Shown here piece by piece: positions 15,060-60,715 of a stretch of DNA of 64,000 nt (positions within the stretch are counted from its first letter, which is position 1; every line of letters starts with the position of its first letter). Source of the DNA: Antedon mediterranea (lineage: Eukaryota > Animalia > Echinodermata); the NCBI RefSeq assembly GCF_964355755.1, contig NC_092673.1:32981648-33045647 (forward strand), read 5' to 3'. Under the pieces are notes generated by a model, which was not told where the DNA came from, searched no databases, and saw only the letters and a program-made list of their open reading frames with translations. The translations under genes were made by a program, and so were the position numbers.

Positions 15060-17010
15060 TTAAATATCGTAACATTTTTTCATATCTTCTTTTGCTTCTT
15101 CCATTGTAATATCCTTCCATCCGTCTGGAATATCAGCCTCCTTAGCGTTGTAGTATTCAGCAAGTTCAGTATTGTATGTTGCCATAAACCATTTCCAAAA
15201 CTTCTGTGACTCGCCTTCAAGTGGTTCAATTTTCCACGATGCGTAGTAGTCATTCACATTCCTATAATCTCTGTAATTGACCCATTCGTTGTTTGTGTTC
15301 TTGTTACAAAAGCGGCCATTAGCCAATAAAGAAGTTGTGCATACATCTGTGGTGAGTTTTCTTGACTCATTCCACCTATATGCGGCGACCCCTTTCGGTC
15401 TGTGACAATCTGAACGATGGTGATCATGTGGGCCATGAAGGTCGCATAGTGCTTCACAAAATGGACACGCCTCCTGGCAAGCTAGTAGATCAGCTGTAAA
15501 GAAATTACAACAGGATGTGCGTATTTCACTGAAAATGCTCGTATCATAAGCATTAATAATTGTATCTTTGATGACGTTTAGTTCCAATAACAGTTTATCG
15601 CTAAGGATTTTCAAATCCAAATCTCTGTCCTCATCAAAAAACATAATGTCTGTTTTGACGCATAACTCTTTATCAATGTGTCCAAGAAAGGTTGGCCACC
15701 ATGATTTCATTGTAATAGAACCTTTCGCACTTAATGCACGGATAGCTTCTTTGAATCCATTTAATATGTCCTGAACTTTATTATGATATATATCTTGTAT
15801 TGCAGAACTACTAGTGTTATCATCCTTCTGGAAACACATTTTCTCTATTTGTTCAGAAGTGAACATTTTGATGCTCAGTATTGGATTAGATAAGTACTTC
15901 TCAAATGAATGGAAATCGCCCGTTTCTGCTATTTCAACCAGCATCCATGCATGGACAGACATCTTACTTGAAAAACCTTTGTTGGCTTTCAGTTTATCAA
16001 TTACTCCACGTTTGCATTTTTCTGGAAGAGCTGTTTTAATAGCACTTGCAATCCATCGAGATGTAGCCGACGCCACTTTATCAGTTACGTGCACATCATT
16101 ACATTCTTCTTTAAACATTTGCCACAATCCTTCTTTTTGAGACTCCATGTATATTCTCGGATCATTTTCCCGCTTGTATTGTTTCTGCATATTTGTTAAG
16201 ATGGGTATGAGTTTTACCTTGTAATTGCACACGGCTAGTCGAATCTTTCCTTTCACGGTAACGTGAACGTTCTCATCTAATTCTATCTTTCCCAAATCAC
16301 TAAGCAAATCACTAAGAAGTTCACATCCCAGTTGTATAGTGTAACTTCTTCCATTCTGTTCAAGCTTTGTGATTTTTGTTTTAAATTTATTTACAATTAT
16401 TTCTTTAGCACTATTAGCCTTATTTACATATGCTTTGTTGCTACTGAACACTGTTTTACCAATTGATTTAAAAGCTTGTTTTATTGGTGTTTGTTTAACC
16501 GGATGATTGATATCTAAAGACAAATCAGTTTTAAGTACGTCAGTATTAAACGTTTCAGACTGCAATATACTTTTAACTTCTGATTGATCGTTTCCTAAGA
16601 AACATTTGACGGTGACCAATTGAAATGACATGTGTACATCTACGTGTCTATCATCTCCTGGTATGTCTGAAACCCACGTTTTCCAGTTTGTAGCAAATTC
16701 TCGTTCGAGTTGCCAATTAGGTAGTTGTTGATTTCGATACTTGTCGGCAAGTTTGTTAGCTTTTTGATAAATATCTTTATTGTACATTTTAATGTCAGCA
16801 TCAATGCTAGCTCTTTTGATAATTTTATTTCCAGAAGAAATAAATGAGTTCCTTATTTCAGCTTTTATTTCCTCACAAAGACCACTGACTTGAATGTCCA
16901 TTTTACCTTCCCATTGACATGTTTTTGTTTCTTTTGTAAAATAAATTGCCATGCTTGATTTAAATCTGTGGATGTCTTCTTCTAATTCCTGTAAATAACT
17001 GTCCAAGATA
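15060..17010 (-). CDS. VLIG/GVIN1-like GTPase paralogue A, last exon, 3' part (helical region and C-terminal Cys/His motif)
   Basis: An open frame of about 650 aa is colinear with the C-terminal 40% of the 1568-aa ORF, e.g. FFTADLLACQE.CPFC.ALCDL.G.HDHHR.DCHRP and FWKWFMATYNTELAEYYNAKEADIP. Confidence 0.92.
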
Positions 17011-17039
17011 TACACAGCAAAATTTGAAATTCTAAGCAA

Positions 17040-18575
17040 GAAAAAAAAATCTTGTTTTAAGAAAAAATTCTTAAAATAAGTATTTTTTTTCTTGTCAAGA
17101 TTTAAAATTACTTAAAACAAGAAATAATTTTCTAGAAAAGACACATTTTCTTAAATTAAGTTTTGCAATATTCTGGAAAATGCTTATTACAAGAAATATT
17201 TTACTTAAAATAAGAAGTCAATATCATTCTCTTCTTATTAAGAATAGTTTTGCTTAAAACACGATTTGAAAATACTTAATTTGAAAAGTATTTTACTTAA
17301 AATAAGAAATCTATATTTTATTTATCCCTATCAAGAATAATTTTTCTTAAATCAAGATTGATGAATTATAAAAATTACTTAAAACAATCATTATTTTTCT
17401 AGGTAAGACAAAGTTTCTTAAATTAGGTTTCGCAATAGTCTTGAAAATACTTGTTTTGAGAAATATTTTACTTAAAATAAGAAGTCAATTTCACACTACC
17501 CTTATCAAGATTATTTTTACTTGAATCAAGATTCGCAATATTCTTGAAAATGCTTATTACAAGAAATATTTTACTTAAAATAAGAAGTCAATATCATTCT
17601 CTTTTTATTAAGAATAGTTTTGCTTAAAACAAGATTTGAAAATACTTAATTTGAAAAGTATTTTACTTAAAATAAGAAATCAATATTATATTTATCCCTA
17701 TCAAGAATAATTTTTCTTAAATCAAGATTGATGAATTCTAAAAATTACTTAAAACAATAAATATTTTTCTAGGTAAGACAAAGTTTCTTAAATTAGGTTT
17801 CGCAATATTCTTAAAAATACTTATTTTGAGAAATGTTTTACTTAAAATAAGAAGTCAATATCATACTATCTTATCAAGACTATTTTTGCTTAAATTGAGA
17901 TTCGCAATATTTTTAAAAATACTTATTTTGAGAAATGTTTTACTTAAAATAAGAAGTCAATATCATACTATCTTATCAAGACTATTTTTACTTGAATCAA
18001 GATTCGCAATATTCTTAAAAATACTTATTTCGAGAAATGTTTTACTTAAAATAAGAAGTCAATATCATACTATCTTATCAAGACTATTTTTGCTTAAATT
18101 GAGATTCGCAATATTTTAAAAAATACTTATTTTGAAAAATGTTTTACTTAAAATAAGACGTCAATATCATACTATCCTATCAAGACTATTTTTGCTTGAA
18201 TTCAGATTCGCAATATTCTGATTTTGAGAAATGTTTTACTTAAAATAAGAAGTCAATATCATACTATCTTATCAAGACTATTTTTACTTGAATCAAGATT
18301 CGCAATATTCTTTAAAATACTTATTTTGAGAAATGTTTTACTTAAAATAAGAAGTCAATATCATACTATCTTATCAAGACTATTTTTGCTTAAATTGAGA
18401 TTCGCAATATTTTTAAAAATACTTATTTTGAGAAATGGTTTACTTAAGATAAGAAGTCAATATCATACTATATCCTATCAAGACTATTTTTGCTTGAATT
18501 GAAGTCAATTCTATTTTAATATTCTTAAAAATACTTATTTTGAGAAATGTTTTACTTAAAATAGATTGTCAATAT
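17040..18575. repeat. Left subterminal array: 102-bp units (about 17810-18575) plus a higher-order duplication of about 370 bp
   Basis: The spurious ORFs at 17826 and 18224 show a 34-codon period. tgcttattacaagaaatattttacttaaaataagaagtc occurs at 17181 and 17551. CTT-N5-AAG motifs are dense. Confidence 0.9.
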
Positions 18576-19530
18576 CCTTATATTCACACAACGGTAGAGC
18601 AGTTAGCACTTCAGTTTCAACTGATGAAAGAATCTGGGTAATCAAACTGTTTGTGCTTTGAATAATCGATTGCACTGCAACCTAAAGAAAATAATATTGA
18701 TTTAATATTTTTTATATTCAAGTTTTAATATGTTTAAAAACTAAGTTGTGCTTTAGTTGGGGAGCTATATGCAGCCTAACAAAAAAAATGTTATTTGTAA
18801 CAATGAAATTGGTCACAAAAAAATGCAACATAAACTTAGAGTGTATAATGCCTAGGCCTAGTACCCAAGTCCTATAGTTACTATAGCTAATAGTCCTGTA
18901 TAATAACAGTACCAGCAAGGCCTAGGAAATAGACGTATTTCTCTAATAAAAAATAGTTTAAAATGCATAATTGTTGTAATTTTAAAGCAAAATGGCTTAC
19001 CTGTGGAATCTTGTTTCTCTCCTTTAATTTTAGTAGAAAGAAATCAGCATTTTTTATACTATTATCTGCTTGTTCATCCTCTAGTTAGTAGGCCTTCTTG
19101 CTGAGCATCAACACGATAATTAATATTAAACAATCATTAACAGTATAACAATACTAGAATTATCACTACTAACTACTATCGTCAGTTGATAAATCATCTC
19201 CGTTATAATAGTTTTTTTCTTCATTAACTTCGTCAGTCTCCTAGTCTAGGCCTAGTTCTACTTCATCCTCAATTGGCATCCTCGTTTTCTCCAGGCATAC
19301 TTATATACTGATGTTTCCATCGTCAACTGCAGGAGGTTGCCGATTGTTATACTCGTCCTTAAAATGGCGTCTTATGACATGCTTGTAAAACGAATTGTAA
19401 ATTCCAAAGCTTGCCGGGCAGCGAACCACCAATTCCACATGTTACTCGAAAATTCGGAGTATTTCCATGAATTGAATTATAATGCCTTAGCAAATAGGGT
19501 AGCAAATACTGTACCTACTTCAGTTTACTG
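18575..19530 (-). pseudogene. 5' remnant of EnSpm-type transposase (C2H2 zinc fingers and following helices)
   Basis: Hand translation gives LLRHYNSIHGNTPNFRVTCGIGG/CPASFGIYNSFYKHVIRRH (one frameshift), then NADFFLLKLKERNKIPQ, an intron at 18682-19000 (GTAAG..TTTAG), and VAVQSIIQSTNSLITQILSS. It is truncated at the left array and has no catalytic domain. Confidence 0.65.
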
Positions 19531-19895
19531 GCACCAACTTATCGCTTTTTTTCGGACTGCAACAAACATGTGTCATTATTATTGTCTGTCGTATTACTGT
19601 TGGTCCAGACGTTTTATAGATTTGCTTTAACCACCATGGAGGTTTATACCTCCATGCTTTAACGTTGAGCAGTATAATGACCTTATACATTCTGGGTAAA
19701 AGGCCAGCGATAAATTTTTGGTTATAGTTGAAAAACAACACTGTGTGTGGTCGATGACCTAGCTCCCGGCGGGATCATGGCCAACGGTTTTTTAAAGTAA
19801 TCATTCAAAATCTAGAGTTTGTAAGTAAAAGACACCTTTCATCGCAATTTATATATTAAATGCTTCAATAGGCCTAGTAAGATTAGTCTAATATA

Positions 19896-22067
19896 ATGTC
19901 GAAGGAAGACGCTTTGTTGAAGATCCGAGAAATAGATGAAGAAGTGGCCAACATTTTAACAGGTTCGTAGGCCTAATAATTATATTTTAATCTGCCAGCA
20001 GTCTAGGCCTAGCCTCCCTAGGCTCCTTCCTAGTTAGTAATACTGTAGGCCTGGAACTAGTAGGTCTAGGCTAGCCTACTATGCCTGTACTGACGGACAG
20101 GTGTATAGGTTTAGCTTAGCATTTTAGTTCAGACATTGACAGAAGGGACAAATATTGTCGGACCTATTTCAGCTAGGTATAAGGAAGGCCTAATAATACT
20201 TAATAGATAATACAATTATAATGTAACAGTTATTTTGTAATGTAGCCATGAAATATCTACGAAGGATTATACTGTATTATTTATATACACATATTCCAAT
20301 GAGAAATATAATGACATTTAAAAACACTTGAAGTGTTTTTAAATGTCATTATATTTCTCATTTCTCTTTATATTTAATTAATTGTACACACTAAGTAATT
20401 CCCGAAGTGATCACATCAATATTGAAACTTTATGTTTTTAACTCTAAATTTAAAAAAAACATACTAAAAAAACAAACAAAAAACATACGTACTGCATAAC
20501 TAAAATTGTTATATTAAATTTCTTTTTAAAAAACTGTGTTATTTACAATATCTTAAATTATTTGTTAGGTAATTGAAGAAGTTCGAAGGATACTAATTAT
20601 TACTAGGCAAAGAGGAATGAAATACAAAAGAAAGCTTTTTAAAAAAGTGCTTAGCAAATTTTTCCAAAGAAGAGAATAATATAGTTTATTTTGGTATTTT
20701 AAAGAGAAACACCAGTCCTCCATCTGGTAAGTACAGTGTATGTTTTTGTACTTTTATCTATTCATAAATAGTTTTATAATGGACCAATGGTAGTGAGGAA
20801 AATACGTGTACATATTGTGTACGTATTTTTAACAGCTTGGTTCGACTCAAGCTAGTGTCATGCACTCCTCCCTTTGACAACTAAAATTAAATAAATGACT
20901 TATGAATATTAATTTTTGACATATTAATGCTCTCCTGGCCAGCCCACCCTTTCCCCTTCCTTTTACATTGACCACCTACAAAACTGTAGGCTACATTATT
21001 AAAAATTTGAGCTACAGTATATCAAGTTTATGTCCATACATTATTCCACTCATTTAAATAAATTTATATAATATAATGTTTTCAATTTGTTATTTTTGGT
21101 TAGGTTCAAAGATAACCCATATGTTGTCAAATCTGTCAAACATATTTGTTGGGAAAAACTCATCAAAAAAAGTCTGCCGACCTTGAAGGTATTTAGTGTT
21201 TTTAAAAATTTAAAATACAAGTAACATTATGTACATTAAAAAAAAATATCTTAAAGTGTTTTTTTAAAATCAAATTTATCTTAGCTTAAAATTCGAGGTA
21301 TATACTATGTTTACAATAATTTATTAAAATCAAACAATTAAACAAAATTTACATTTAATTGTATGATTGTTATTATAAACATTGATACAGAATAAAAACA
21401 TCAATCAGGATTGAGCACCGTTTTGCGTATTGTCTTCCTAAATAGTAATATTAAAAATAAATTTAGACCCTAATAATTTAACTAAAAATAATAGATACAG
21501 CCAGGCCTGTCTTTGGGATCGGTATAAACAGGGCAAAGTTTGTGATTAAAAAGTTCAAATGCATATTCCACCCACCCTTATGTCTTATAATGTAAAATTA
21601 TTCTTACCACCGTTCTAATATTGCGTCATGTTTTTGTGTTTACCGCCCCAGATATAGGATTCTAAAACCACACCGTACCCAATTAGTTGATGATGTTACA
21701 CATATTTTAAATACAGTAATAACTAAAACTATATTAATCTCTTTTCATTTTTAGGAACATGAATAAAGATCCAGAATCCTGGTCTTCACGCCGATCAGGT
21801 AATATGCCGGTATTGCTTTTGGACACAGAAATGGCCTACATTAAAGTTTAGCAAACAATTCTAACTACAAAGAAAGCAAAATTAGATGAGGCTCTAGTTA
21901 CTCTCCTCTCCACTTTTTACCTTCTGGATTTCGATTATCCAAAATGAAAAGAAGTAGGCCTCACTATCCTTTAACAGTTAGTGATTTGTGATGAAAACAC
22001 ACCTGTACACTTGACAAAGGCTGTTGAATCATCATTAGTATACATTAATAAATTTAAAGACACCTAA
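19896..22067 (+). pseudogene. Decayed multi-exon accessory gene (ORF2/TnpA-equivalent, SAMD3-like C-terminus) of the EnSpm element
   Basis: It starts MSKEDALLKIREIDEEVANILT. AG/GT-bounded exon remnants lie near 20570-20726, 21104-21188 and 21756-22067. The last reads DEALVTLLSTFYLLDFDYPK*KEVGLTIL*QLV, matching the FYxFxxxYP motif of animal EnSpm ORF2. Confidence 0.6.
20298..20362. repeat. Perfect hairpin with 32-bp arms and 1-nt loop
   Basis: aatgagaaatataatgacatttaaaaacactt g aagtgtttttaaatgtcattatatttctcatt. Confidence 0.95.
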
Positions 22068-22359
22068 TAGTTTAAAGCCCAGGTGCGGGAGAAGAATTTT
22101 ACGAAATTTGTATTTTACCATTTTAATGTTTTTAAGTTTTCTTTTGATGGCATTTAATATTAATAAAAACAAGTTTGTTTTAAAGAAGTTGTATATATTA
22201 TTGTATCTAATGTCATGTAAATTGTAGTTCTTAATGAAAATAACAGTATTGTTAATATTATGTTTTATAACATTCTTGAATTTATTTGTTTAAGTAAAAT
22301 ATTACTTAAAATGAGTATTCATTTATCGTTCTTAAAATAAATTTTTAATGATTTATATT

Positions 22360-23957
22360 TTATAGAATTCTTGTTTCAAGCAATTTTTTTCCCAATATAA
22401 GTAAGAATTTACGAATTTTAATTTGATAGAATTCTTGTTTCAAGCAATACTTTTCTTAAAATAAGTAAACATTTACTGGTTTTTATTTGATAGACTTCTT
22501 GTTTACTTATTTTAAAAAAAGTTTTGCTTGAAACAAGAATTCTACAAAAAAAAATCGGAATATTCTTACTTATTTTAAGAAATATATTGCTTGAAACAAG
22601 AAAACTAAAAATATAAATCGGAATATTCTTACTTATTTTAAGAAAAATATTGCTTGAAACAAGAATTCTACAAATAAAAATCGGAATATTCTTACTTATT
22701 TTAAGAAATATATTGCTTGAAACAAGAATTCAAAAAATACAAATCAAAATATTCTTACTTATTTTAAGAAAAATATTGCTTGAAACAAGAATTCAAAAAA
22801 TACAAATCGGAATATTCTTACTTATTTTAAGAAAAATATTGCTTGAAACAAGATTTCAAAAAATACAAATCGGAATATTCTTACTTATTTTAAGAAATAT
22901 ATTGCTTGAAACAAGAATATTAAAATTAAAAATCGAAATATTCTTACTTATTTTAAGAAAAATATTGCTTAAAACAAGAATTCTAAAAAATACAAATCGG
23001 AATATTCTTACTTATTTTAAGAAAAATATTGCTTGAAACAAGAATTCTACAAATAAAAATCGGAATATTCTTACTTATTTTAAGAAATATTTTGCTTGAA
23101 ACAAGAATTCAAAAAATACAAATCGGAATATTCTTACTTATTTTAAGAAAAATATTGCTTGAAACAAGAATTCAAAAAATACAAATCGGAATATTCTTAC
23201 TTATTTTAAGAAAAATATTGCTTGAAACAAGAATTCAAAAAATACAAATCGGAATATTCTTACTTATTTTAAGAAATATATTGCTTGAAACAAGAATATT
23301 AAAATTAAAAATCGGAATATTCTTACTTATTTTAAGAAAAATATTGCTTAAAACAAGAATTCTAAAAAATACAAATCGGAATATTCTTACTTATTTTAAG
23401 AAAAATATTGCTTGAAACAAGAATTCTACAAATAAAAATCGGAATATTCTTACTTATTTTAAGAAATATTTTGCTTGAAACAAGAATTCAAAAAATACAA
23501 ATCGGAATATTCTTACTTATTTTAAGAAATATATTGCTTGAAACAAGAATTCTATAAAATACAAATCGGAATATTCTTACTTATTTTAAGAAATATATTG
23601 CTTGAAACAAGAATTCAAAAAAATACAAATCGGAATATTCTTACTTATTTTAAGAAAAATATTGCTTGAAACAAGAATTCTATTTTAAAAAATCGATAAA
23701 TTGTTACTTATTTTAAGGCAGATACTGCTTAAAACAAGACTTAAAAAAGCAATTAAATTCTTGGTAAGAATATTGTTCTTAAAGTATTATTTCTTGGTAA
23801 GAATAATTTTCTTGATAAGAATTTGTGTGATTCTTGTTAAGAATTTTACGATTCTTGGTAAGCCAAAAAGTATTGAAATACGGACAAGTCAAAATTTACT
23901 TGTTTCAAGAAATATTTTGCTTGAAACAAGTTTTTTTTTTCTTAAAACAAGAATCAG
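22360..23957. repeat. Right subterminal array: 63-bp units with 379-bp higher-order repeat
   Basis: A 21-codon period is visible, and ORFs 22650-23036 and 23029-23415 are nearly identical (offset 379). Units at about 22360-22500 are in the inverted orientation. Confidence 0.92.
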
Positions 23958-23969
23958 AATTTTGCTGTG

Positions 23970-26750
23970 TACTGTCCATCTTTCCTCATCTCTTCTGCTG
24001 TGAGTTTCTGACATTCAATTTGGAGTCCGTAGCTGTATTCCAGTGCGTTTCTTCTGAATGTACGGGCATGCTTCACATATTCTACATTCAAAGCGTTAAA
24101 AGCTTGAATCTCGATAGAATTTTTGAAACTGAATACAAAATGTTGACCTAATATTGCATTCCAAAGATCGCGTAGCAATTTTGGAAACTCAGCTATACGC
24201 TTAGGTTCGGAATATTCCATGAATTCAAAGATTTGTTTCTTTACTTGAAGAATGCATTGGCTGTAACCAGGATTAGGGGGCGCCATTGGTAGATCTCCTT
24301 GCCAAAGGCTGGAAATGTACATAATGTGTTTGTTTTCTTGAAAGTTAATGACATCAGAAAACGATCGATATTTTTCACTGCAATTCTCTTCGGCCGCAGC
24401 AATTTTTGTCATTTCATCCAATGTTTCTCGCATACGTCTTTTTTGTTTCGTATTCAAATCAGATGCTCTGACATCAGTGACATTTTGATGTACAAATAAG
24501 CAGCTGGGTTTAATATTAACATTATTGATTTTCATAAAAGCGTGGACAGCAATTTGAAGTGTGTCTTGCATGTCTGTTGGGTTTTCTCCCATAATATTTA
24601 TTATGGTAAGATCACCTAATCCAATCACTAGCGTGGCAAGTTCATTATCACGACTGGTGTCCTGTTGAATGCTGGTGAATTCAGGAGACCGCAAACCCTC
24701 AGTGTCAACCACAAGCATGTAGTCACATTGTGTCTCTTCTCTTAAACCTTTATCTAACGATACCAGTTGGGCGAATATACCTTTAGTACATCTTCCAGCA
24801 CTAACAGAGAATTGTAAACCAAACATAGCATTTAACATGGTTGATTTTCCGCTACTTTGAATGCCCAGTACAGATAACACAAACACTTTTTTATTACCAA
24901 CTTGGTATTTAAGAGAATTGAACACGGCTTCAATCCAAGTGAGAGGCACGTGGGTTGCATCACCATCCATCAGCTCAATAGGGTATCCATGTATTAACAT
25001 TTCAGCAGTAACTTCTGCTAAGTAATCACTGTCAGATATTGGTAATTTCAATGCTGATAACATTTCGTAATTCTGTCCAATTTCTCTAGTGAAATGTTCC
25101 AATCCTACAGATTCATGAGATAGTTGCTGTTCAAGTTCATCAAGTTTATATTTCATTGTTTCCAATGTTGGTTTAGATGTTTCTGGTTTGTCTTTGTTGT
25201 GGTCACATAATTCATTCCACTTTGCTATGTACTCTTCACGTATCGGCTGTAGCTTTTGAATGCTATATCTATCGGCCATTATCTTTACTAATCCAAAGAA
25301 ATATTTTCTTTCAATAGTCTTGTAGCTGAATGACTGTTTAAACAACATATACGTGCTTTGGCTGCGTTCCTTGCGTTCCCTGTGTAAATTTAATTGCAAA
25401 CTACGTAAGTCGTTTATCTCTTTCTTTACCTTTTCAACATACACCTCGATTTGCATATTTCCTTTTCCTAGTAGCCGACGCTGTTCTTTTTTCTTGTCTC
25501 CAATTTTCACTGTTATCATCTGCAAGGGCAGTTCCTTATGTTTCCCCTCTTTTTCGACGAGCTTAAGTAACATACCAACTGTCTTTTTTGCTTCTGAACA
25601 ATCAAATTCGTCAACGTGGAAATTTATTTTGTCTGCTACTTCAATGCACTCCTCGATACTCCTATCATGTAGGCCTACAATTTCCCGGTTACTTCCCTTG
25701 AAATTACATTTAAGCAGTTTCCAAATTTCTGCACTTATTTTCAGCTCGTTTTTGTTGAATGACTTAATACATTGTACCTCTTTGTTCACATCTCGAAAAT
25801 TTTCTTGAATTTCACGTAAGACTTTTTTTAAAACTTCTCCAGCAGAGCCGTCCAAGATAAAAATGACGTGACCCATTTGTCTGTACAATGATTTAAGTAA
25901 CGTAGCGTCATGGTCATTAAAGTTAGCACATGAAACAAATGCAATAGTGACCAGTGATATCTCTGATAAAAATTGTGTCTGAAGTTGGAAATCCGATGCA
26001 TTTCCTCGTAGGTTTATGAAAGCTATTGCTTCTGAAACAGTACCATTCTGCGTTGGAATGTACCACGCTATTTCTAATAACCCATTTGATAATTTTCGTT
26101 CTAAATTACCACCTTTGCATCCATAATTAAAGAAAGTATCATGTTTCTGCTCATTAATGACACAGTTGACAATTTTTGATTTGGATATTTTAGGTCTTCC
26201 TAATCGCAAAGCAGAAACAATCGGTAACTTTTCTACCACCATTGACCGTTCACAAGACGAACCTGATATTGTTTTCCAATTTTTTGTTATTGTGCTCATT
26301 CCCCAGACAATCAGTTTCCATTGTTTATCCTGTACGTTCGTCACTGGGACCAGTAATGGTATAGCTAACTGACATAGCGACAATTTTTCAATCAAAATTT
26401 GTGTTAAAAAATTGTCACAACACAACAAAATGGCCACCAGTGCGTCTAATGGACTCACGTGACCGTTTTGTTTACCTTGATTTGGGCTTTCGTCTTGTAG
26501 AACAGAAAGAAGTGAACAAGATTGAATTTCTTCTAAATCAAATGATCTTCCTTCATAGTTACATATTATAAGATTTTGTAAGATATACCAAGGTATTTTG
26601 CTTGGGTCGTCATTGAGTTCATCTGGTGAAATCACATGTTTGGAGACTACCTCTTTACGAGTTAGTTTTCTGGGATAATATTTCTGTAGTCCTAGATGTT
26701 CAACCATCTGCTTATGTATGTTAATTTTATCTTCTCTTTCATCTAAAGAA
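23970..26750 (-). CDS. VLIG/GVIN1-like GTPase paralogue A, last exon, 5' part (URGCP-like domain and VLIG-type G domain)
   Basis: G1 GIQSSGKS, G2 GRCT, G3 DTEG, then DNELAT and FVHQNV. The acceptor tttcag lies at 26751-26752 (phase 2). The frame runs into the transposon TIR and stops (YTAKF*). Confidence 0.93.
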
Positions 26751-26845
26751 CTGAAAGTACAACGAGTTTGATGAATAAACATGATAAATATGATGATCCC
26801 AACGGCAAATACTTATTTATTAATTAATTCCACATTTTAACTTAC

Positions 26846-26909
26846 TCTACATTCTTCTGCAAAGGTACTTCTGTCGTCCTCAGTAAAGGTATGATTACGG
26901 GTTTAAAAT
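26846..26909 (-). CDS. Paralogue A exon 5 (64-nt linker)
   Basis: ttttaag|ATTTT...GTAGA|gtaagt; phase 1 to phase 2, reads (D)FKPVIIPLLRTTEVPLQKNV(D) and joins exon 4 to the GTPase exon in frame. Confidence 0.75.
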
Positions 26910-28229: not shown

Positions 28230-29720
28230 TTCAACAACACCCTCTTTGATAAAGATGCAAAGTTTGAAAATTTAGCACAACATCTTTCTATGCAAGATGA
28301 GTGCAAAAATATTGAAGAATACTGGGGGGAAATGAAAACTGCAATTTATGACTGTGTTTGGTAAGAAGATCAAAAACAACCCAGATTGGTTTAAAGAAAA
28401 GTATGAAAAGTTCCTGCCTGTCATTGAGAAGAAACCTACAGCTCTGTTAGCTTACAAGACTACACGGCATAATCTTGCTCCTACGTTTAGCCAGGGCAGA
28501 TGTGCAATGAGTTGTGCGCCAGTGCATTAACAAGTACTGGGAAGAACTTAGTGCTCAGAGAAAACAAGATGCTGACACAGGGTACTTGAAGGGCATGTGT
28601 AGAAAGAAAACAGCACAATTTTAAGACCGAAATGGTAATCTTCAGGCAAGGCTGGTGGTATACCAACTGAAATTGTTAAAGCAGGTGGCCAGACTCGTAC
28701 ATCATCTGCATGAGATTATTAGTTTCTGTTGGTCTCTTTACAACGTCTGCTGCCTTTAGCTGCGAAAAGAATCTCAATGTGGTTTTTGCTCTGGAAGATA
28801 TACCATTGATATGATTTTCTCTATTAGGAAGCTGCAGGAAAAATGTGTATCGATCTGTTATCCATCAATCTCACTAAGGCGTTTGACCTTATTAATAGAG
28901 ACTGTCTATTTGAAATCCTAAGGAAAATTGGATGTCCACCTACTCCAATAAATATTATCCGATCCTTCCATGAAAGAATGCAACCTACTGTCAAGTACAA
29001 TTATGCAGTGTCTGACTCATTTGATGTCGAGAGAGGAACAAAACAGAACAGAACAGAAGATGTTCTTGACCCTCTACTCTTTGGGATTTACTTTGCAGTC
29101 GTCCTCCAAAGAGCTTTTTTACCATAATCATATGGAAGGAGTTTGATTGCATTGTAGATCTATTGGCAAGCTGTACACCCCGGCCAAACCAACTGGCCAA
29201 AACAATTTTTCTGGAAACTGTACTGGAAATTGTCTTACCTTGGTCCAGTTATAACTAATAGTAACTCTCTTGATTGCGAACTAAACATTCGAATCGGAAG
29301 ATCTTCTAGTAGTTTTAGTCAGTTGTCTGTACGTGTTTGAAAAAACAAAAATATTAGAGTGACTGTGTATGAAGATCAAATTGTATATGGCATGTGTCAT
29401 TAGTGTCCTTTTTGTATGGAGCTGAATCGTGAACAACCTATGCTAGACCAGAAAAGAAACTAAATGTCTTAAATATCAGATGGCAGGACAGGGTAACAAA
29501 CAACAGTATCCTTGATAGATGTGGCATTCCTTCGATGTTTACATTAATTCGACAGCGAAGACTACGATGGCTTGGTCATGTCAGAAGAATGGATGATACA
29601 AGAACTCCAAAGGTTATGCTGTGGGGTGAGCTAGCGAATTGCAAACGATCTTTTTTTGCGTTTCAAAGATGCATGTAAAAGAGACTTGAAGGCCATGGAT
29701 ATCAATGTTAACACCTGGGG
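28230..29720 (+). mobile_element. Decayed RTE-clade LINE
   Basis: Fragments KNNPDWF, INLTKAFDLINR..LFEILRKIGCP, DPLLFGIYF, YLG..I, RQRRLRWLGHVRRMDDTRTPK. Confidence 0.85.
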
Positions 29721-29721
29721 A

Positions 29722-29833
29722 AAAAGGCCATATAGATGGCTGCAGTCCTGTGTGCAAATTTGAGTTAATGTTTACCTACCGACCGACCGACCGACATAGT
29801 GAGCTATAGAGTCGCGTTACATACGACTAAAAA
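29722..29833 (+). mobile_element. Short Helentron/DINE-1-like non-autonomous copy
   Basis: aaggcc..., (CCGA)n, then catagtgagctatagagtcgcgttacatacgactaaaaa; same family as 38671-39462. Confidence 0.6.
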
Positions 29834-30164
29834 GGCTGATGACCGAAGGTCATAGAAAGACTGTATTCAGTCATTCCTCATTTTCTCCACATTATATTAT
29901 GACACGTTCGTTAATTTCCTTAAGGGTTAGAGTATCTTCAATTGACCGTCACAAAACAATTCGTATAAACAATTTAAAAAACTCATTATCTCTATATCGT
30001 GATATCAGATTTTTTTTTAATCCCAAAATATTGTATATATAAATATTGGTCATATACAGTGGTATCCCAGAATGTTTCAAAAAGTGGCTCCCTCAGACTC
30101 AAAATTGTACTGAGAGCGGGGAAAAGTATAAACATATAATATATATTAGCCCATAGACGCAATC

Positions 30165-31530
30165 ACTGGGTGGCAAATGGCCGGGTGGCAAATGGCCGGT
30201 GGTGGCAATTGGCCGGGTGCCAAATGGCCTAGGTGGCAAGTGGCCTGGGTGGCAACAGGCCGGGTGGCAAATGGCCGGTGGTGGCAATTGGCCGGGTGCC
30301 AAATGGCCTGGGTGGCAATTGGCCTGGTGGCAAATGGCCGGATGGCTAAGGCCCGGGTGGCTAAAGGCCGGGTGACAACATACCTAAGGTGGTAACAGGC
30401 CGGGTGGCATTATTTTTTTCTATTAGGAAAGAAACTATAGAGTCTGTGCATTTATGAATATTCATGATGTGACGGAAAAACTTAGAAATAGTTCCCACAC
30501 GATAATCGAAAAATGTTGATATCTTGTCGCGCTAGAACTGCTAATGCACGAAAAGAAACGTTACAAATGTTGCTTATGTTTGTAAAATAGTTATTTCTTG
30601 ACATCTAACAATGTACATATTAGAAATTAAATTAATTAATTAAAAACCACAAACCTCTAGAATTAGCAAGAACTGTTGTTACCTTCCTGTGGTCCACATT
30701 CAATGTTTAATATTATCTATATTTTATAATTTTCAAAAACGACCTGGTGGTAATTATCCTAGGTATTTTTATGGTATTTAATTTGTAATAAAAAGTTCAA
30801 TTTCAGGCAATATCATTCCCCAAAAAGAAAAATGTGTATGTTGCAGATGTAGATTTTCCGTTCAAACCACGCCTATTTTTAAAGTTAAAAAATATAAGCA
30901 ATCTCAACAATTAAATAAAATATATAGTAAGTATGGGCCTATAGCATATAATTATATATAGCTAGCCTACATTTTAAATATACAATACAATATAAAACGG
31001 GCCTAGGCCCTAAGATTAAGAAGCCATTTTACTTGTTAAATAAACTTTGTTGGTCCTAGTCCTAGACCTACCTACTCCTCGTCATAGGGTAGTTAAAACG
31101 AACACCAAATAATTAATAAAGGAATGTGCTGTTATATATTAAATTAAATGTTGTTAATATACCTGAAGTAGGGGAATATCACCATTGATCACCACACACA
31201 AACACCTCAACAAAAACATAGATATTATATCAGTGAAGAAGTAGGCCTCTCTTCACTGATATTATCGAAGACTAGCAAGATCTGCTTTCGCTCGCGAAAC
31301 GTGTGTCTTGCAAGTATGACGTCATGATCTCACGCATGCCTCGTGAATATTCACGCCCTCTATAGCGTATGCCTTAACCTATTAGGAAAAAATAATGCGG
31401 CCGGGTGGCAACAAGCCGGGTGGCAAAAGGCCGGGTGGCGAAATGGACGTGTGGCAAAAGACATTATGAGGAAAGGGCGGGTGGATAATAGGCCGAGTGG
31501 CAAAAGGCCAGGTGACAACGGACCAGAACC
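30165..31530. repeat. 15-bp GC-rich minisatellite (ggccgggtggcaaat) split by an insertion
   Basis: Arrays at 30165-30406 and 31398-31530 are in the same orientation. Confidence 0.85.
30407..31397. mobile_element. MITE of about 990 bp, Mutator-like (9-bp TSD)
   Basis: Imperfect TIR gcattattttt..cta(t/a)tagg..ctatagag. ggccgggtg lies on both flanks, but the flank is itself repetitive. Confidence 0.55.
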
Positions 31531-32329
31531 TAAAATATAAATGTGTAGCTTTCAGTTACAATACAAAAATTACCATAGAAAAACATTTATATAAACAGTT
31601 TGAAAAGGGGAAATTTTGCTATTTTCCCCAATCACACAGACAATAGTAATACTGTACGTTGTTCGTTGCAGATGGGTACCGGTATTTATTATAAAAATTG
31701 GTGAAAACTTTAGGCTAACAACACGTTCAAGTTTCTTTACTCACTTTTTTCTTCTTGTTTACTTGTAGTTGCCAACTCCGCAGAAGCTATTTTTGCTTGG
31801 TCCGATTCCTCTGTTTAATATAACCAATCATGTGTAAATTACATTTTACAATTCTCATTAAAAAAGAAAAAAAAAATCCGAGAAAAACACAATATAAAAA
31901 GTTTTGAATAAAGGGGGATGTTATGTTGATATAAGTTTGCAATACACCACGTGTATATTGTTCTGAAATGAACTGCTGATGTTTTTTAACGCAAACCTTC
32001 AAACAAAATGGATTTTGCTATTTGTTTCACAATCACGCACATAAAAGTAATACTGTACGTCCTTTGTTGCAGATGTTACTGTAAATGATTATAAAAGTGG
32101 GTGAAAAACTTTAGGCCAATCACACGTTAAAGAATCTCTAGTTACTCATTTTTCGTCGTATACCCCAATTCCTACGCTTAGATACCAATAATGAGTCAAA
32201 AGTAACAAGAAACTTTATTCGCGCCTTTACAAAATGGCGGCTAAAAAAATGGTTTCATTTATAAGCACATTTTAATTTTAGTTACAAATCCAATATCTGA
32301 AATAGAAATATTTAATTGAAATTTCTTAC

Positions 32330-32665
32330 CTATTTCCTTCAGTTTTCTCACAGCAGAACAAAAAAACTTGTAACGAATTGTAACATCAATAACCTCTTGT
32401 CGCTGGAATTCGTCTACTATTTTTGTTGCTAAAACTTTGTGCAACTTTCCACTTGCATACACTTCCCACAGGTCTTCCAATGCTTTAGTGTCATATGCAG
32501 CTACGCGTAACACTAAAGATCCAGATTCTGCTGAAATAGAGTCTACATTATGTTCACGCTTGAAAAAATCAGCAAGCTTATACACTCCAGCAAAAAATAA
32601 ATTGATAGGCGATGATGTCCAGTTTGAACTTTGATTTCTACTCAGATATCATATTAACTGCACAC
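32330..32665 (-). CDS. Paralogue A exon 4, TRADD-N-like module, with in-frame TGA at 32649-32651
   Basis: tttttaag|GTGTG...ATAG|gtaag, 336 nt, phase 1-1; motif SGSLVLRVAAYDTKALEDLWEVYASGKLHKVL. Confidence 0.72.
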
Positions 32666-33049
32666 CTTAAAAACAAAACGTGAAACTCTTATACTAAAGA
32701 TGTAAGAACATGAACAATAAAGATTAGGCTAAAAAAACTATTTAATAGTTTAATTATTCACGTTTTTTTTAAAATGTAAAACATATTTTATTTTATTTAA
32801 AAAAGATATTTAATTTTATATTCATACAGGATAAAGGATAATGATGGAGCACCTGCTTTACATATAATCTGGTTTATAGAAAATAAAAGGTTAAAAACAT
32901 GCATATACAATTCTTTAAAACTTGCTAAACGGTAAAATAACAAATAAAGTAAAAAATATATGTACATTTATGATAAAAGGAGTGAAAATACAAAAAAAGA
33001 ATAAAACACATTTGTAATTGGACAAGGTACAGGTAGTGACTTAAACAGA

Positions 33050-35420
33050 AGCAATAAAATAGTTTTAAAAGACAATTTCTGAAATGAATCCTCACATACA
33101 ATCATTATCAATATAACTGTTCTCAAAATGTTAAAATAGTGAGGATTTATATTGAAATATTTGTTTACAATTTGGATGATTCTTTAACTTCTTGCAGTAG
33201 ATCATTCCATACATGAGCGTCGGCGAATTTTAGTGAAGTCCTCATTATTTTTACATTAGGGTTAGGGGAAACCATAATTATTAAGAGTATTGGATTGCCT
33301 AGTATTATGTCCATGTTTATCGAACACAATTTCTATATCATTGCATAGTCTTGAAGGTGCAGTGCCAACATTTGAACATTAAACATGATATCGCATAATT
33401 TCTTCTTATATTTGAAATGTTTTCTAAGATAGATAATTCATTATATCACGTCACCACGCGTCGTTTTATAATTTAAATTGTTTGTAATTAGGTATAATGT
33501 TCTCATTAAATGTTTATTTTTAATTGTATAAAAACCTAGATAGTAAATTTAATTTTGCACAGACAGCTTTTGTTACCGTTGTAATATGGTGCTTCCAAGA
33601 TAGCTTGTCATCAATTTCGAGTCCTAAGTACCTAATATGTGAAACATTTTCAATACACTGATTTCCTAGAAGAGCTTCAAGTTTACAATATCGAGTATTG
33701 CATATCTATTTTTAATTTATATTATGTCCTTGTGGTATTCCGATTTCAATGTTTCTTTTTTCTGATATCTTATTATCATATTTAACAACCTGTTCTCTTT
33801 CACTAATGTAATTTTCAAAACATTTAATCTCATTATTCATAATACCGTAGTTTCGTACTTTTTACTCGGGTACCCGAGTTTAGGACTCTCTCATCCTCTC
33901 CATCTGGACACTATTGAGCCAACTTTCAAGTCCTACTAGTTTTTTACGCGGCTCTAAAACATGGCATGCATATACTAGGGTAATAGGTGAACAAAGCTAT
34001 AGAGATAAAATGCTCGTACTTCAACCGGATGCAGAATTATGACGTCATAAACATGGTACCAATCGAAAATAAAAAATTTATAAAGTACTCCTCCCTTATT
34101 CGTTGTAGTATTGAGCTGGGATTTGGCATGAATATACTACAGGAACATTTCCTCAAAGCTATAGAGCCGTATTTTTAGTCTCTACAGCTCACTATGTCGG
34201 TCGGTTGGTTGGTCGGTTGGTCGGTAAACACTAACTTGTATATGGCCTTGTCTTGACAGTTTCATCTAGCTAAGTCAATTTTTCACAGTATATTCCTTAT
34301 GGCCAGGAATCGATGTGATTATGTTTTCACGGTGCGTAATAAAAAATTACGCGGTGGGTCTACGCACGATTTAACGAAATCACGTTTGTAATCATATCTT
34401 CACCAGCATGAATCACATGCCAAATAAAATTTGGTACTCATAAATTTCAGGGCATAAATCATCATATGGCAATACAATTACGTGCGTAGCGCATGTAAAG
34501 CATGCGTACGCACGCTTAAAATTTTCAAAATTTTCAAAATTTATTTTTGATGAAATATATATATATATATTTTAAGCGTTTAAAAAATTGCCATAAGTGC
34601 GCAGATTTTGTTAAATGTTAATATGCACTCTTTTTGCCCGATTTCTGTTTTACAACCTTTCTTTAATAATATCATCATATTTTATTCACTTTTCAACTCG
34701 AAATTACGTTATATGAGCACGTCACGTGTATAGTATAGTCGATTGGTTGGTCGGTCGGTCTGTAAACATTAACTTGAGCACGCGACTGCAGCCATCTATA
34801 TGGCCTTGTTTAATTTCAAACCGGATGCAGCCATATGACGTCTCGAAGATGGTACCTTGGTGCCAGACAATTTTCGTCGTAATATAGCCGTGTTTGGTGA
34901 CATTTCAAAGGTCTTGACTTGGAAAATAAGAATATATACAGTAAAACCTATTTATGATATTGTGACGTCATTTCTGCTCCCGGAAATAGCAAAAAATAGC
35001 TGTATTTGGTAGCGAGGTTATTTATGTGTATGTGTCTTATGATGTCATTACAGCTTCTTTTGCTGTACCCCGAGTATCGCACATTCGTGCTTGTTCCAAT
35101 AGCAGAGCGTGATCAACAGTGTCGAAACATTTGGAGATATCTAAAAAACATGTTCCGATCATTTCATGCTCATTTAAAGATTCAATCCATTCATCGATCA
35201 CTCTATGCAAGTAAGTCATTGTTGAATGGTCTTTTCTAAATGCATATTGGTCTATATAGTTATTAAGTTGAATTTGTTTAAATAATCCGTTAATTGATTC
35301 TGTATGATTCTTTCCAGAAATTTAGAAACATGACAAACTACTGAAATTGGTCTATAGTTACTTTATATTTCGTTTGCCTTTCTGCTTTCTTCCAGTCCAT
35401 GAGCTGACATTGCTTCCCTA
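33050..35420 (-). mobile_element. Decayed CR1/L2-type LINE fragments interrupted by later insertions
   Basis: IGTCFLDISKCFDTVDHALL (35037-35219), YLGLEIDDKLSWKHHI near 33590-33640, and a 3' FADAHVWNDL remnant near 33200. Confidence 0.7.
33940..34812 (-). mobile_element. Helentron/DINE-1-like non-autonomous element(s)
   Basis: Reverse complement of the 38800-39330 core (e.g. tcataaatttcagggcataaatcatcatatggcaatacaattacgtgcgtagcgcatgt), (GGTC/GGTT)n tracts and a ggccttgtt end. Confidence 0.65.
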
Positions 35421-36015
35421 TAAATTACGGTTTATCAGGATTTTTTTTTTCTATCTATAATTTTTGGATGACTTGATTTTTGATGAATGACTATAATTAT
35501 TATGTGACATTTATTTATTTATTTTTAAAGGGGCGGGGGGGTGACGCTCGTGTTGCTTCTTCACTGTCGACAAATAAGGAGTATTATCAATGTGTTATTT
35601 TATAATAAACGATAGATATTTTAAGCCCGGCTGGCGATATTTTTACCTACAGGATAGTTGGGGCATTACAAGATATTAGCCAATCAGAATATTGTATAAT
35701 TTTAAGATAGCCGGCCTATTTCCTAAATAACGGAAATTCTAAATACTATTTTAAAAAACATCGAAGACCTTAGTCTTTACAAGTGTGCCACACAAATTGG
35801 CTTGCCGAAAACCGTTGATACGATTTATGTCCCCCTGTCCTAATTTATGCAATGACGTAACCCAAGATGTAATCTATATATACACGTCCTGATTGGTTAA
35901 TATTTTGTGATGGGCCCAACTAGTATGTAAATAAATTAAATCTTGCATCCGGGACTACCTTTAATTAACTGTAAAATGTACTAAAATACGAAGTACATAA
36001 ATATAAGCACAATAC

Positions 36016-36060
36016 CTTTACATTGACATGCTTCCAGATCAATGTCGGGTGATTGGCCAT
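36016..36060 (-). CDS. Paralogue A exon 3 (45-nt linker)
   Basis: tttttatcttccag|ATGGC...TAAAG|gtatt; phase 1-1, reads (D)GQSPDIDLEACQCK(G). Confidence 0.7.
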
Positions 36061-36308
36061 CTGGAAGATAAAAAAAAATCTATTTACATTTACTGAAAAA
36101 TGTGTGTATGCATCAATAACTAAATTTGAAACATAAATAATGAAAATTGGCTGCTATATCTCTGCATGTGTGAAAAAACCTAACCAATACAGTATATAAT
36201 AATAGTACAGTACTATTATTGCAATGCACATCATGGAACGGCAAAGACATGCATGATCGAACCACCAATATAATACCGTATTTAAAATATAAAAATATCA
36301 AAGCTCAC

Positions 36309-36641
36309 CCTTTTTCTGCAGTTCTCTTAAAGCAACTGTGTAATCGATTGGTTTAATGTCTGTCGTCCAATTATCTATAGCCATTTGCTGATGCTGTGGA
36401 TCAATGATGCCTACTAAACTCTTGAGAAGCTTTTTATTTGAATGTATATCCATTAATGTTAATAAGCCAGATTGATCATTTATGTTTAGATAAAGTAATA
36501 GTGAGGTTGGATACATGTTCAATGTACTCTTAATTAGATGAACAGATGGACATACATTTCTGAAATATTCTCCAAGGAGAGGATGTTTCCAGTTTAAGGA
36601 TGATTCTGGTGTTGGATCAAAAGTTATTGGAAGTTCTGAAT
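36309..36641 (-). CDS. Paralogue A exon 2, diverged TRADD-N-like module
   Basis: ttttatag|ATTCA...AAGG|gtgag, 333 nt, phase 1-1. Size, phase and pattern match exon 4 (SS.NW..P...F; SL.L....D...L..L......KL.K.L; ends ALRELQKKG vs AVRKLKEIG). Confidence 0.72.
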
Positions 36642-36825
36642 CTATAAAAGAGAAAAACACTAAAATTACAAAGTAAATAATGATGATAATAATGATGTTT
36701 GATGATAATTAATCATATTTTGAAAAGAAATACTAAAGACAAAATGGAACAAAACTAGTATTTTTTTTAATGAAAGCATTATGCTTCCTTTTAATATCGT
36801 AAATAATACAATGTGCATACATTAC

Positions 36826-37351
36826 CCCTATCAAGTAGTAGATTTTTTGCACGTTGGTTAAGACGAAGTGCAAAGTTCTCAATTTTACGTGGTTCATCCG
36901 CTAATTCTCCGATACTCTCTAGTTTGAAAACTACAATCCAAATGTTTCGGAAGTGAAACTTTCTCAGATTGTAGTAAGCGATAACTTGTGATAACCTCTC
37001 TTTCTGAATTTCTTGTAAGGCTTTAAATAGCCTTCTCCGGTATGGTGACAATGGTTGTATATCAGTATTATGAACTCTGTTTGTCTTCATATACTCTAGT
37101 ACAAGATCTTCAGCAGCCTTAATTTGTGTCAGTTTCACAATGTCTAACAACAGGTTGACATTAGTAGGTAGGATGTAACCTTTTAGCTCAAGTTTATTGA
37201 ACAAATCATGTGCTATTAAACCATGCTCGTCGAAGTCTCCGAAAGGTAGGTGATCGCATAGGCAGAATTTGAGCAAACGATACTGATCCCCCTTGTAGTG
37301 TTCACCAAGATTAGCTTTTAAGTCCCTGAAGTTCATATTCAAATTTGCCAT
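36826..37351 (-). CDS. Paralogue A first coding exon: tandem death-effector-domain-like folds
   Basis: FRDLKANLGEHY...LLKFCLCDHL...DLFNKLELKGYILPTNVNLLLDIV, then LSPYRRRLFKALQEI...VFKLESIGEL. Donor G|gtaat at 36825; 5' acceptor tttttgcag at 37372-37373. Confidence 0.75.
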
Positions 37352-55247: not shown

Positions 55248-55919
55248 CTTATCTTTCTAAAAAATTGAAGTAAACAAAACGAATGAATAAAATGTTTGAT
55301 GTTTGAGGTATTTATTAAATAAGCCTAATAAGGACTTTTTTAGATTAAATAATGCCCACATATCTTACTGTCGAGCTGTAGGTATACCACTCCTATAAAA
55401 ATCACAAATCACCAAAACCATCAGCTCATTGGCATTATTGCGACAGATCTTGTTTTTAGGGAAAGTGGGAAGTGCATGCATATAAAGAGTGAATCACGGT
55501 GGGCATTTTGTTGTGAATTAACTTGAAGGGTGCAGTGTCCAGGTACTATGAGCTTACCAAAACGTCACTGTGTGGTACCTTGTAACGTAATGCCACTTGA
55601 GCTAGAAAATGACAAAATACAATTTTTTTTAACAGATTTATGTATGTAAAGTAAGGTACTGTATGATGTAATGTAATTGGAACATAATGGTCCGCGAAAC
55701 CATTTTCAACTCAAGTGCTTTATGGAAACAGGTTCATTAAGATGGTTTTTGCTGTATTTCAACAACGTGTGCCATTAAGCCTAGGAGGTACAAATATTTG
55801 CCATTTGTTATAGCTAAAGCACATATTACAATACGATGCTATAATAATTGTTTGCCAAGAAAAACAAAATTCTGTGACAGGACACAATCGTAAATTCTAT
55901 GAAATTAAAGCAGAATTAA

Positions 55920-59290: not shown

Positions 59291-59535
59291 TTTATAGTTG
59301 TTAGCTATTTATAGCAGACCTATAATTGCATCTTCTTAAAACCTTTAAAAACATTTGTTTAGCATAATAAATATATGCAAATAAGAGCGTCGTACCAGTA
59401 ACTACAATACGAGACAGTACCAGGCTTAATGATTTGCTTCGACAGTACAGACAACACAGTAATGGTAACCTTTGAAATCGTAGGACAAGTCATCAATACT
59501 GTCAAATAAGATATTCACAAACACAAAGTAAACAC

Positions 59536-60589: not shown

Positions 60590-60715
60590 TAAACACTAAC
60601 CCACAATCTTGTTAATTGCCTTGATTCAACCGAATGCGAAAGTAGCCTACATCCGTGTGTGTTGTGAACGAAATGTTCCTGCAATATGGAGCTTTTGAAA
60701 GTGATTCACCACGCC

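What the first reader, a model, noticed from the sequence alone, without database searches (positions are those of the whole stretch)
15060..37351. Giant GTPase fused to tandem death-effector-like domains and two TRADD-N-like modules
Seen: six minus-strand exons (37351-36826, 36641-36309, 36060-36016, 32665-32330, 26909-26846, 26750-15060 minus the transposon). They have canonical GT-AG sites and matching phases (1,1,1,1,2) and sum to 6036 nt, or 2011 aa. Known: VLIG/GVIN1 are immune-inducible giant GTPases; tandem DEDs nucleate FADD/caspase-8 filaments; TRADD-N binds TRAFs. Inferred: a DED-DED-(TRADD-N)x2-URGCP-GTPase protein, i.e. a giant-GTPase sensor wired directly to caspase or TRAF signalling. 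It would be analogous to an NLR but built on a GTPase. I do not know this architecture as characterised. The domain calls are by eye.
Basis: partly seen in the sequence, partly recalled or inferred. Interest (0 to 1): 0.88.

Follow-up and report, generated by a model that had tools for sequence, protein, structure and literature searches.

The report
Broken feather-star DED–giant-GTPase fusion gene
This feather-star locus likely joins a caspase-8-like pair of cell-death domains and two predicted TRADD-N-like modules to a giant immune GTPase, but this copy carries a premature stop codon and a 7-kb transposon, and no transcript joining the parts has been seen.

Summary
The six exons, their GT-AG sites and the 6036-nt sum are real, and the domain calls hold. 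Exon 1 is a caspase-8-like tandem DED. Exons 2 and 4 are one TRADD-N-like (PF20694-type) family. The last exon is a URGCP/VLIG GTPase. The 2011-aa protein cannot be made, though. A 6957-bp CACTA-like element cuts the GTPase exon just after the G domain. The public model is only a 917-aa GTPase fragment. Support for one gene is indirect: a same-genome paralogue (XP_071948946.1) joins the sister DED pair to a VLIG exon at the equivalent point, and no other coding exon was found between. No RNA run was listed. The DED pair is a roaming crinoid cassette, also found on NLRs, Roc-COR GTPases, caspases and RIG-I. DED+TRADD-N fused to immune GTPases (AIG, GBP) is already published. The VLIG partner is what appears new. 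Verdict: a new variant of a known kind, likely a recently disabled allele.

The parts
36826..37351 (-). Exon 1: ATG plus tandem death-effector domains (175 aa), phase-1 donor
   Evidence: Pfam DED E=5e-4, below cut-off. Family profile hits caspase-8 at E=2.7e-6. Homologue P0003 model matches caspase-8 tDED, Z 16.5, rmsd 2.9 over 160 aa. Sister to the DED pair of P0001, support 99/92.
36309..36641 (-). Exon 2: TRADD-N-like module A (symmetric phase 1-1)
   Evidence: No Pfam hit on its own. Same family as exon 4 and 29 other copies. 37% identical to P0002/P0003 module A.
36016..36060 (-). Exon 3: 45-nt linker exon (phase 1-1), predicted from splice sites
   Evidence: Strong GT-AG sites. A linker of like length lies at this place in P0132. 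No transcript seen.
32330..32665 (-). Exon 4: TRADD-N-like module B (symmetric phase 1-1), carrying the premature stop
   Evidence: Pfam TRADD-like_N E=0.007, below cut-off. The Atlas places the homologous module of P0157 with PF20694.
32649..32651 (-). Premature TGA, codon 307 of the joined frame
   Evidence: Present with 0 differences in DNA contigs of runs X1 and X4.
26846..26909 (-). Exon 5: 64 nt (phase 1 to 2); uncertain, not needed for the frame
   Evidence: Good splice sites. No homologous hit. An alternative phase-1 acceptor lies at 26742.
23970..26750 (-). Last exon, 5' part: URGCP domain plus complete URGCP-like (VLIG) GTPase domain; acceptors at 26750 (phase 2) and 26742 (phase 1)
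   Evidence: PF25496 E=8e-71 and PF25683 E=1e-119, both above cut-off. Motifs GIQSSGKS, RCTKG, DTEG, FVHQN are intact. The public 917-aa model P0278 covers only this part.
17013..23969 (.). 6957-bp CACTA/EnSpm-like non-autonomous DNA transposon inside the GTPase exon
   Evidence: CACAG..CTGTG ends, 12-bp TIR, TA duplication. 63-bp and about 102-bp subterminal tandem arrays. No intact transposase ORF. The superfamily name is recalled.
15060..17010 (-). Last exon, 3' part: C-terminal 649 codons of the VLIG protein, still an open frame, ends in TAA
   Evidence: 57% identical to the intact paralogue. dN/dS 0.36 against it.
50541..55256 (-). Intact tandem paralogue: stand-alone VLIG GTPase (public model P0279, 1568 aa) with no DED or module exon upstream in the window
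   Evidence: DED and module profiles hit only exons 1, 2 and 4 in six frames of the window.

Best explanation
This is likely one crinoid immune gene, made by exon shuffling of a tandem-DED plus two-TRADD-N-like cassette onto a VLIG/URGCP giant GTPase exon, and the copy here is broken by a stop at codon 307 and a 7-kb transposon. Shown: the exons, the domains, the intact GTPase motifs and both lesions. Inferred: splicing of the cassette to the GTPase exon, and that the loss is recent (only two lesions in 2011 codons). Predicted working of an intact allele: the GTPase polymerises on a cytosolic microbe or its vacuole, as human GVIN1 coats bacteria. That crowds the N-terminal DED pairs, which seed a DED filament and recruit crinoid caspase-8-like or cFLIP-like proteins carrying the same DED-pair family. 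The TRADD-N-like modules would act as adaptors for an unknown partner; TRAF is only a guess.
For: All cassette exons are phase 1, and the GTPase exon has a phase-1 acceptor (26742). It gives D followed by 14 residues before the conserved HLG, the same spacing as the DED-to-VLIG junction in RefSeq model P0001. The window's DED pair and P0001's are sisters among 56 rows (99/92), and P0001 is the only one of the 150 listed DED-pair carriers with a VLIG core. Four other genes on the same contig have DED2-moduleA-moduleB and all continue into further domains (DED pair, LRR, RING-NHL, ubiquitin), so exon 4 needs a downstream exon. 161 held proteins gave 0 tblastn hits outside the known exons, and the gap holds LINE and repeat debris. 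The GTPase exon lacks the in-frame ATG that stand-alone paralogues have about 13-20 codons before the conserved start motif. dN/dS is 0.28 before and 0.36 after the insertion, with no frameshift. The same DED-pair family sits on 2 caspase-domain proteins named caspase-8-like and cFLIP-like. GVIN1 coat: bioRxiv 10.1101/2025.03.24.645074 (abstract and passages).
Against: No transcript was seen. The public model here is a 917-aa GTPase that starts at an internal Met and does not include the DED exons. P0001 lies on a contig of the same length as the window's own proteins, so it is a same-genome paralogue, not an orthologue in a second species. It is itself a gapped, truncated prediction without the modules. 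The GTPase cores do not follow the DEDs: the window core groups with P0289 (0.997) and the kinase-VLIG P0280, not with P0001. None of the 7 Anneissia VLIGs held has a DED. The pairwise dN/dS covers both branches, so it does not date this copy's loss. Exon 1 is only 24% identical to the caspase's DED pair.
Confidence: 0.62

Rival explanations
1. Two neighbouring genes: a short DED2-TRADD-N adaptor gene and a separate URGCP-sized GTPase gene that starts at the internal Met, as the public annotation has it.
For: The public model P0278 has this form. The 5.4-kb gap is long. Short DED2+module proteins exist (P0156, P0157, P0167). Several VLIG paralogues stand alone.
Against: No terminal exon for the cassette was found. 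That Met is not conserved in paralogues. The sister DED pair is joined to a VLIG exon in P0001.
Confidence: 0.2
2. The allele still works through alternative splicing. Skipping exon 4 removes the stop in frame and gives a 1230-aa DED2-TRADD-N-URGCP-G protein that ends just after the G domain. A cryptic splice could even remove the transposon (1881 aa).
For: Exon 4 is symmetric; isoform arithmetic is. The insertion falls after the whole G domain. The transposon's 3' end holds a strong in-frame acceptor (17031; 13 of 14 pyrimidines) that pairs in phase with a GT at 23972. Four other Antedon models (P0001, P0280, P0281, P0284) also end shortly after the G domain. Human GVIN1 was long called a pseudogene but works.
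Against: The cryptic donor is weak (CA|GTACAC). Two independent lesions must both be tolerated. The truncated paralogue models may simply be decaying genes.
Confidence: 0.13
3. A dead-on-arrival chimera: the cassette landed upstream of a GTPase exon and the fusion never worked.
For: The DED tree and the GTPase tree disagree. The cluster is rich in transposons and truncated models.
Against: Two DED-VLIG juxtapositions with sister DED pairs at 68% identity imply long persistence. Frames are open apart from two lesions.
Confidence: 0.05

Closest known systems
Invertebrate DED + TRADD-N (DEDD2-clade) expansions with variable C-terminal effectors (Kaur et al. 2021, eLife, PMC8195603; section 11 read whole, other passages, supplement searched)
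   Same: Constant death-fold plus TRADD-N region joined to a swapped effector. Reported in echinoderms. Partners named include AIG and GBP GTPases, TRIM, polyubiquitin and RLR helicases, which match partners seen here.
   Different: 'VLIG', 'GVIN', 'very large' and 'URGCP' had 0 hits in the supplementary files searched; the first three terms also had none, or were not all tested, in the main text ('very large' 0, 'GVIN' 0). [quoted passage not shown]
GBP-DED of amphioxus and GBP-CARD of zebrafish (PMC6400534, passages)
   Same: An immune GTPase fused to a death-fold domain; zebrafish GBP4 binds ASC through its CARD.
   Different: GBP family (about 65-70 kDa, size recalled), not VLIG. No TRADD-N modules are described there.
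Vertebrate GVIN1/VLIG-1 and URGCP (bioRxiv 10.1101/2025.03.24.645074, abstract and passages)
   Same: PF25496 plus PF25683 core and G motifs; 30% identity to bird GVIN over about 1600 aa. GVIN1 coats cytosolic bacteria.
   Different: Bird GVIN has about 850 residues before the core where this gene has DEDs and modules. No death-fold domain is described for GVIN1 in the passages read.
Mammalian CARD6 (recalled; the Dufner 2006 and 2008 papers were not held)
   Same: As I recall, an N-terminal CARD joined to a URG4/VLIG-like region, so a death fold on this protein family has a precedent.
   Different: CARD rather than tandem DED, no TRADD-N, and as I recall no active GTPase. Not tested here.
RefSeq XP_071948946.1 (P0001), Antedon mediterranea
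   Same: Sister DED pair (68% identical) joined to a VLIG exon at the equivalent point.
   Different: No modules, gapped and truncated at 1217 aa. A prediction named only 'interferon-induced very large GTPase 1-like'.

Membership tests
VLIG/GVIN-URGCP GTPases | URGCP domain (PF25496) followed by URGCP-like GTPase domain (PF25683) | tested here: met
   Both far above cut-off
VLIG/GVIN-URGCP GTPases | Intact P-loop and G motifs | tested here: met
   GIQSSGKS, RCTKG, DTEG, FVHQN, as in paralogues and nearly as in bird GVIN; the motif numbering is recalled
VLIG/GVIN-URGCP GTPases | Uninterrupted core of about 1570 aa | tested here: not met
   Transposon after codon 926 of the exon; met by the paralogue at 55256-50544
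VLIG/GVIN-URGCP GTPases | Infection- or cytokine-induced expression, GTP hydrolysis, coating of microbes | not testable with these tools
   No RNA holder listed
Caspase-8-type tandem DED | Two packed death-fold bundles superposing on caspase-8 tDED | tested here: met
   On homologue P0003 (52% identical to exon 1): pLDDT about 90, Z 16.5, rmsd 2.9, 160 aligned; Foldseek E=3e-5
Caspase-8-type tandem DED | Pfam DED gathering score | tested here: not met
   Exon 1 scores 20.8 bits against 35.9; homologue P0002, with several DEDs, scores 59.9
Caspase-8-type tandem DED | RxDL and FL surface motifs (recalled) | tested here: inconclusive
   In the profile alignment to caspase-8 the DED1 Phe is kept; RxDL and the DED2 FL are not evident. 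Read from a consensus alignment, not from a structure of exon 1
Caspase-8-type tandem DED | Filament formation and caspase recruitment | not tested
   No complex job was run
TRADD-N-like domain (PF20694) | Sequence or fold match to the family | tested here: met
   Homologous module of P0157: Atlas feature score 0.92 (214 of 256 shared) and structure TM 0.66 to PF20694 clusters. Pfam hits at E 0.007-0.08 in exon 4 and 4 of 14 homologues, all below cut-off
TRADD-N-like domain (PF20694) | Match of my own model to a solved TRADD-N structure | tested here: inconclusive
   Modules had pLDDT about 50-78 in a 640-aa model whose hit lists were filled by DEDs
Vertebrate TRADD (PF09034) | TRAF2-binding surface | not tested
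   The TRADD cluster ranks 28 of 30 at 0.76; per PMC8195603 that clade is confined to vertebrates
NLR (STAND) receptors | NACHT or NB-ARC plus repeat sensor | tested here: not met
   No such Pfam hit; an analogy only, though the same DED pair heads 20 NACHT proteins among 73 scanned
CACTA/EnSpm transposon (features recalled) | CAC termini, short TIR, 2-3 bp duplication, subterminal repeats | tested here: met
CACTA/EnSpm transposon (features recalled) | Transposase ORF | tested here: inconclusive
   No long coding ORF; a 51-aa remnant gave no Pfam hit

The most novel reading that the evidence does not exclude
Feather stars have wired the giant VLIG GTPase straight to caspase-8-type death. A microbe-coating VLIG polymer nucleates DED filaments from its own N-terminus. 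The tandem VLIG cluster swaps its N-terminal cassette (DED pair, DED+TRADD-N, kinase, acidic repeats or none) by exon shuffling, as NLRs do, and intact or exon-4-skipped DED-VLIG proteins are made in living animals.
Probability: 0.3. Interest if true: 0.7.

Novelty: new variant of a known kind. Interest (0 to 1): 0.42.

Why it matters
VLIG/GVIN is a little-studied class of immune GTPase; human GVIN1 was only recently shown to coat bacteria and needs unknown co-factors. GBP-CARD and GBP-DED fusions once pointed to the GBP-inflammasome link. In the same way, a natural VLIG-DED fusion predicts that VLIG coats can feed caspase-8/cFLIP signalling, which can be tested in crinoids and in human cells. 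The value of this locus is limited: the copy is broken, the fusion is inferred from DNA, and the cassette is so promiscuous that one more partner is expected.

Tried and rejected
Single-sequence AlphaFold of exon 1: pLDDT 38, not used. Sequence search of exon 4 against PDB: only weak hits (best E 0.39, nearly all transthyretin), rejected as chance. My model's modules were not matched to a TRADD-N structure in lists filled by DEDs; no conclusion drawn. No RNA holder listed. Run X5 (another sample, 'RNA?' by guess) covers intronic repeats, had no depth over exon 4 and showed no listed joint at an exon boundary; tables were cut, so this is no evidence either way. No whole genome was held. My early reading of P0001 as an orthologue in another species was dropped. 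An exon-1 read-through ORF is not in the protein collection. An alternative exon-4 acceptor behind the stop was rejected as weak. The Atlas survey of URGCP clusters for CARD or DED partners did not complete. No complex prediction was run: the caspases held come from another species, and a DED-DED pass would reflect likeness to solved structures. Paper searches for this architecture listed no paper describing a DED-VLIG fusion; I saw listings only, and subscription journals are mostly missing. In PMC8195603, supplement file 4 is cut and file 13 was not searched, so a VLIG fusion could be listed there. Earlier scan notes: none by sequence or place.
Full report
Observation. The window is AT-rich animal DNA (33% GC). 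The six exons have GT-AG ends and the stated phases. The 'transposon' is 17013-23969: 6957 bp, a 12-bp perfect terminal inverted repeat, a TA duplication and long subterminal tandem arrays. These features fit a non-autonomous CACTA/EnSpm element (name recalled). Removing it gives 6036 nt as claimed, but the translation has a stop at codon 307 as well as at the end. The TGA lies at 32651-32649, six codons into exon 4, in a stretch that is open in three homologues. A 2275-nt DNA contig covers it with no difference in runs X1 and X4, both of one sample and perhaps the source of the assembly. So this copy cannot make the 2011-aa protein. As the DNA stands it gives 306 aa, or 1230 aa if exon 4 is skipped.

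Source and annotation. The window's own proteins P0278 (917 aa, 100% identical) and P0279 (1568 aa) lie on a contig of 36,192,472 bases. Named Antedon mediterranea RefSeq proteins lie on a contig of that same length, so this is most likely that feather star. P0278 begins at an internal Met of the last exon and ends in the transposon; the public model misses the DED exons. At least 12 VLIG models lie on this contig. Several are truncated, and their N-termini differ: DED pair (P0001), protein kinase (P0280), a hydrophobic stretch (P0284), acidic repeats (P0004) or none.

Domains. The last exon carries PF25496 and PF25683 far above cut-off, with intact G motifs; the insertion falls behind the G domain. 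Exon 1 alone scores below the Pfam DED cut-off. A 50-row family profile finds caspase-8 first (E 2.7e-6), then cFLIP and FADD. The collinear homologue P0003 was folded with 51 rows. Its DED pair is confident and superposes on caspase-8 tDED (Z 16.5, rmsd 2.9, 160 residues). This is a test on a 52%-identical homologue, not on exon 1 itself. Exons 2 and 4 belong to one family of 31 copies in 22 sequences held, the window's included. The copy in P0157 falls with PF20694 TRADD-like_N by features (0.92) and by predicted structure (TM 0.66). The vertebrate TRADD cluster ranks far lower, so TRAF binding has no support here.

The cassette. Homologue P0003 finds 198 representatives at E up to 0.001; 150 were listed. 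I scanned 73 of them, mostly the longer ones. 20 carry NACHT, 12 Roc or COR, 3 kinase, 2 caspase, and single ones RIG-I helicase, Rel, TIR or ubiquitin; several are NHL/B-box proteins. All 15 whose names I looked up are crinoid; the rest were not looked up. Four genes on the same contig have DED2-moduleA-moduleB and continue into other domains. Only P0001, of 150, has a VLIG core. Conversely, of 204 VLIG-like proteins held (the best 120 of 190 long ones and 84 near-length ones), 1 has the DED pair and none has the module.

One gene or two. For one gene: the cassette exons are phase 1, and the GTPase exon has a phase-1 acceptor at 26742 with the same spacing to the conserved HLG as the junction in P0001. 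The window's DED pair is sister to P0001's (99/92, 56 rows). No other exon was found in the gap, and the usual start codon of stand-alone paralogues is absent. Against: no transcript; P0001 is a same-genome, gapped, truncated prediction; and the GTPase cores do not group the same way, the window's being sister to P0289. That mismatch fits cassette swapping, gene conversion or unannotated exons. I put one gene at about 0.8 in all, and a disabled allele at about 0.62. dN/dS against the intact paralogue is 0.32 (0.28 before and 0.36 after the insertion) with no frameshift, which suggests recent loss but does not date it. Immune GTPase, caspase and death-effector genes are often present or absent between individuals in amphioxus (PMC12373286, passages); the same may hold here but is untested.

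Mechanism. Inferred throughout. Human GVIN1 forms a coat on cytosolic bacteria (bioRxiv 10.1101/2025.03.24.645074, abstract and passages). Tandem DEDs of caspase-8 polymerise (PDB entry titles). An intact fusion would therefore turn coat assembly into DED crowding and recruit caspase-8-like or cFLIP-like proteins, which in crinoids carry the same DED-pair family. Identity to such a caspase's DED pair is low (24%), and the surface motifs look divergent, so the partner is open.

Comparison and novelty. PMC8195603 (section 11 whole, passages, supplement searches) describes DED+TRADD-N constant regions with swapped effectors in echinoderms and other marine animals, including AIG and GBP GTPases, and lists a URGCP-named sea-cucumber protein with CARD, DED and TRADD-N. 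PMC6400534 (passages) reports GBP-DED and GBP-CARD fusions. CARD6 as a CARD plus VLIG-like protein is recalled only; PMC6949089 gave just the citations. Ten library searches listed no description of a DED-VLIG fusion. It is a member of the VLIG family by domain, not an NLR, and a new variant of a known kind. Interest 0.42.

Noticed in passing
window 50541-55256 (-): Intact stand-alone VLIG paralogue, 1568 aa in the public model; 72% and 57% identical to the two halves of the broken copy. Small candidate GT-AG micro-exons lie just upstream (about 55367-55391 and 55578-55601).
   Followed up: partly
window 58203-63776 (-): 3' exons of a TYW3 tRNA methyltransferase gene (Pfam TYW3). Its putative last exon with the preceding intron is duplicated in tandem (61057-61464 and 58203-58652, 89% identical).
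   Followed up: partly
window 17031 and 23972 (-): The transposon's 3' end carries a strong splice acceptor in frame with the downstream coding sequence, and a weak GT at the insertion site is in the same phase, so the element could in principle be spliced out leaving six extra codons.
   Followed up: partly
P0280 (XP_071948948.1), same contig: Protein kinase domain fused to a VLIG core, a second unusual N-terminus in this cluster.
   Followed up: no
P0198, P0193, P0148, P0250, P0230, P0210: The crinoid DED pair also sits on a RIG-I-like helicase, a Rel-homology protein, caspases, a ubiquitin hydrolase and an ENTH protein; a RIG-I with tandem DEDs at its N-terminus is notable.
   Followed up: no
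window about 28300-29700 (+) and 33500-35400: Decayed LINE-type reverse-transcriptase fragments (weak RVT_1 hit) and high-copy interspersed repeats fill the introns.
   Followed up: partly
window 4750-5514: Small inverted-repeat element with 14-bp tandem arrays in both arms, MITE-like.
   Followed up: no
PMC8195603 supplement file 4: PIK36113.1 (Apostichopus japonicus, CARD+coiled-coil+DED+TRADD-N+CARD, 1289 aa) is named URGCP-like and may be an independent death-fold/URGCP fusion.
   Followed up: no
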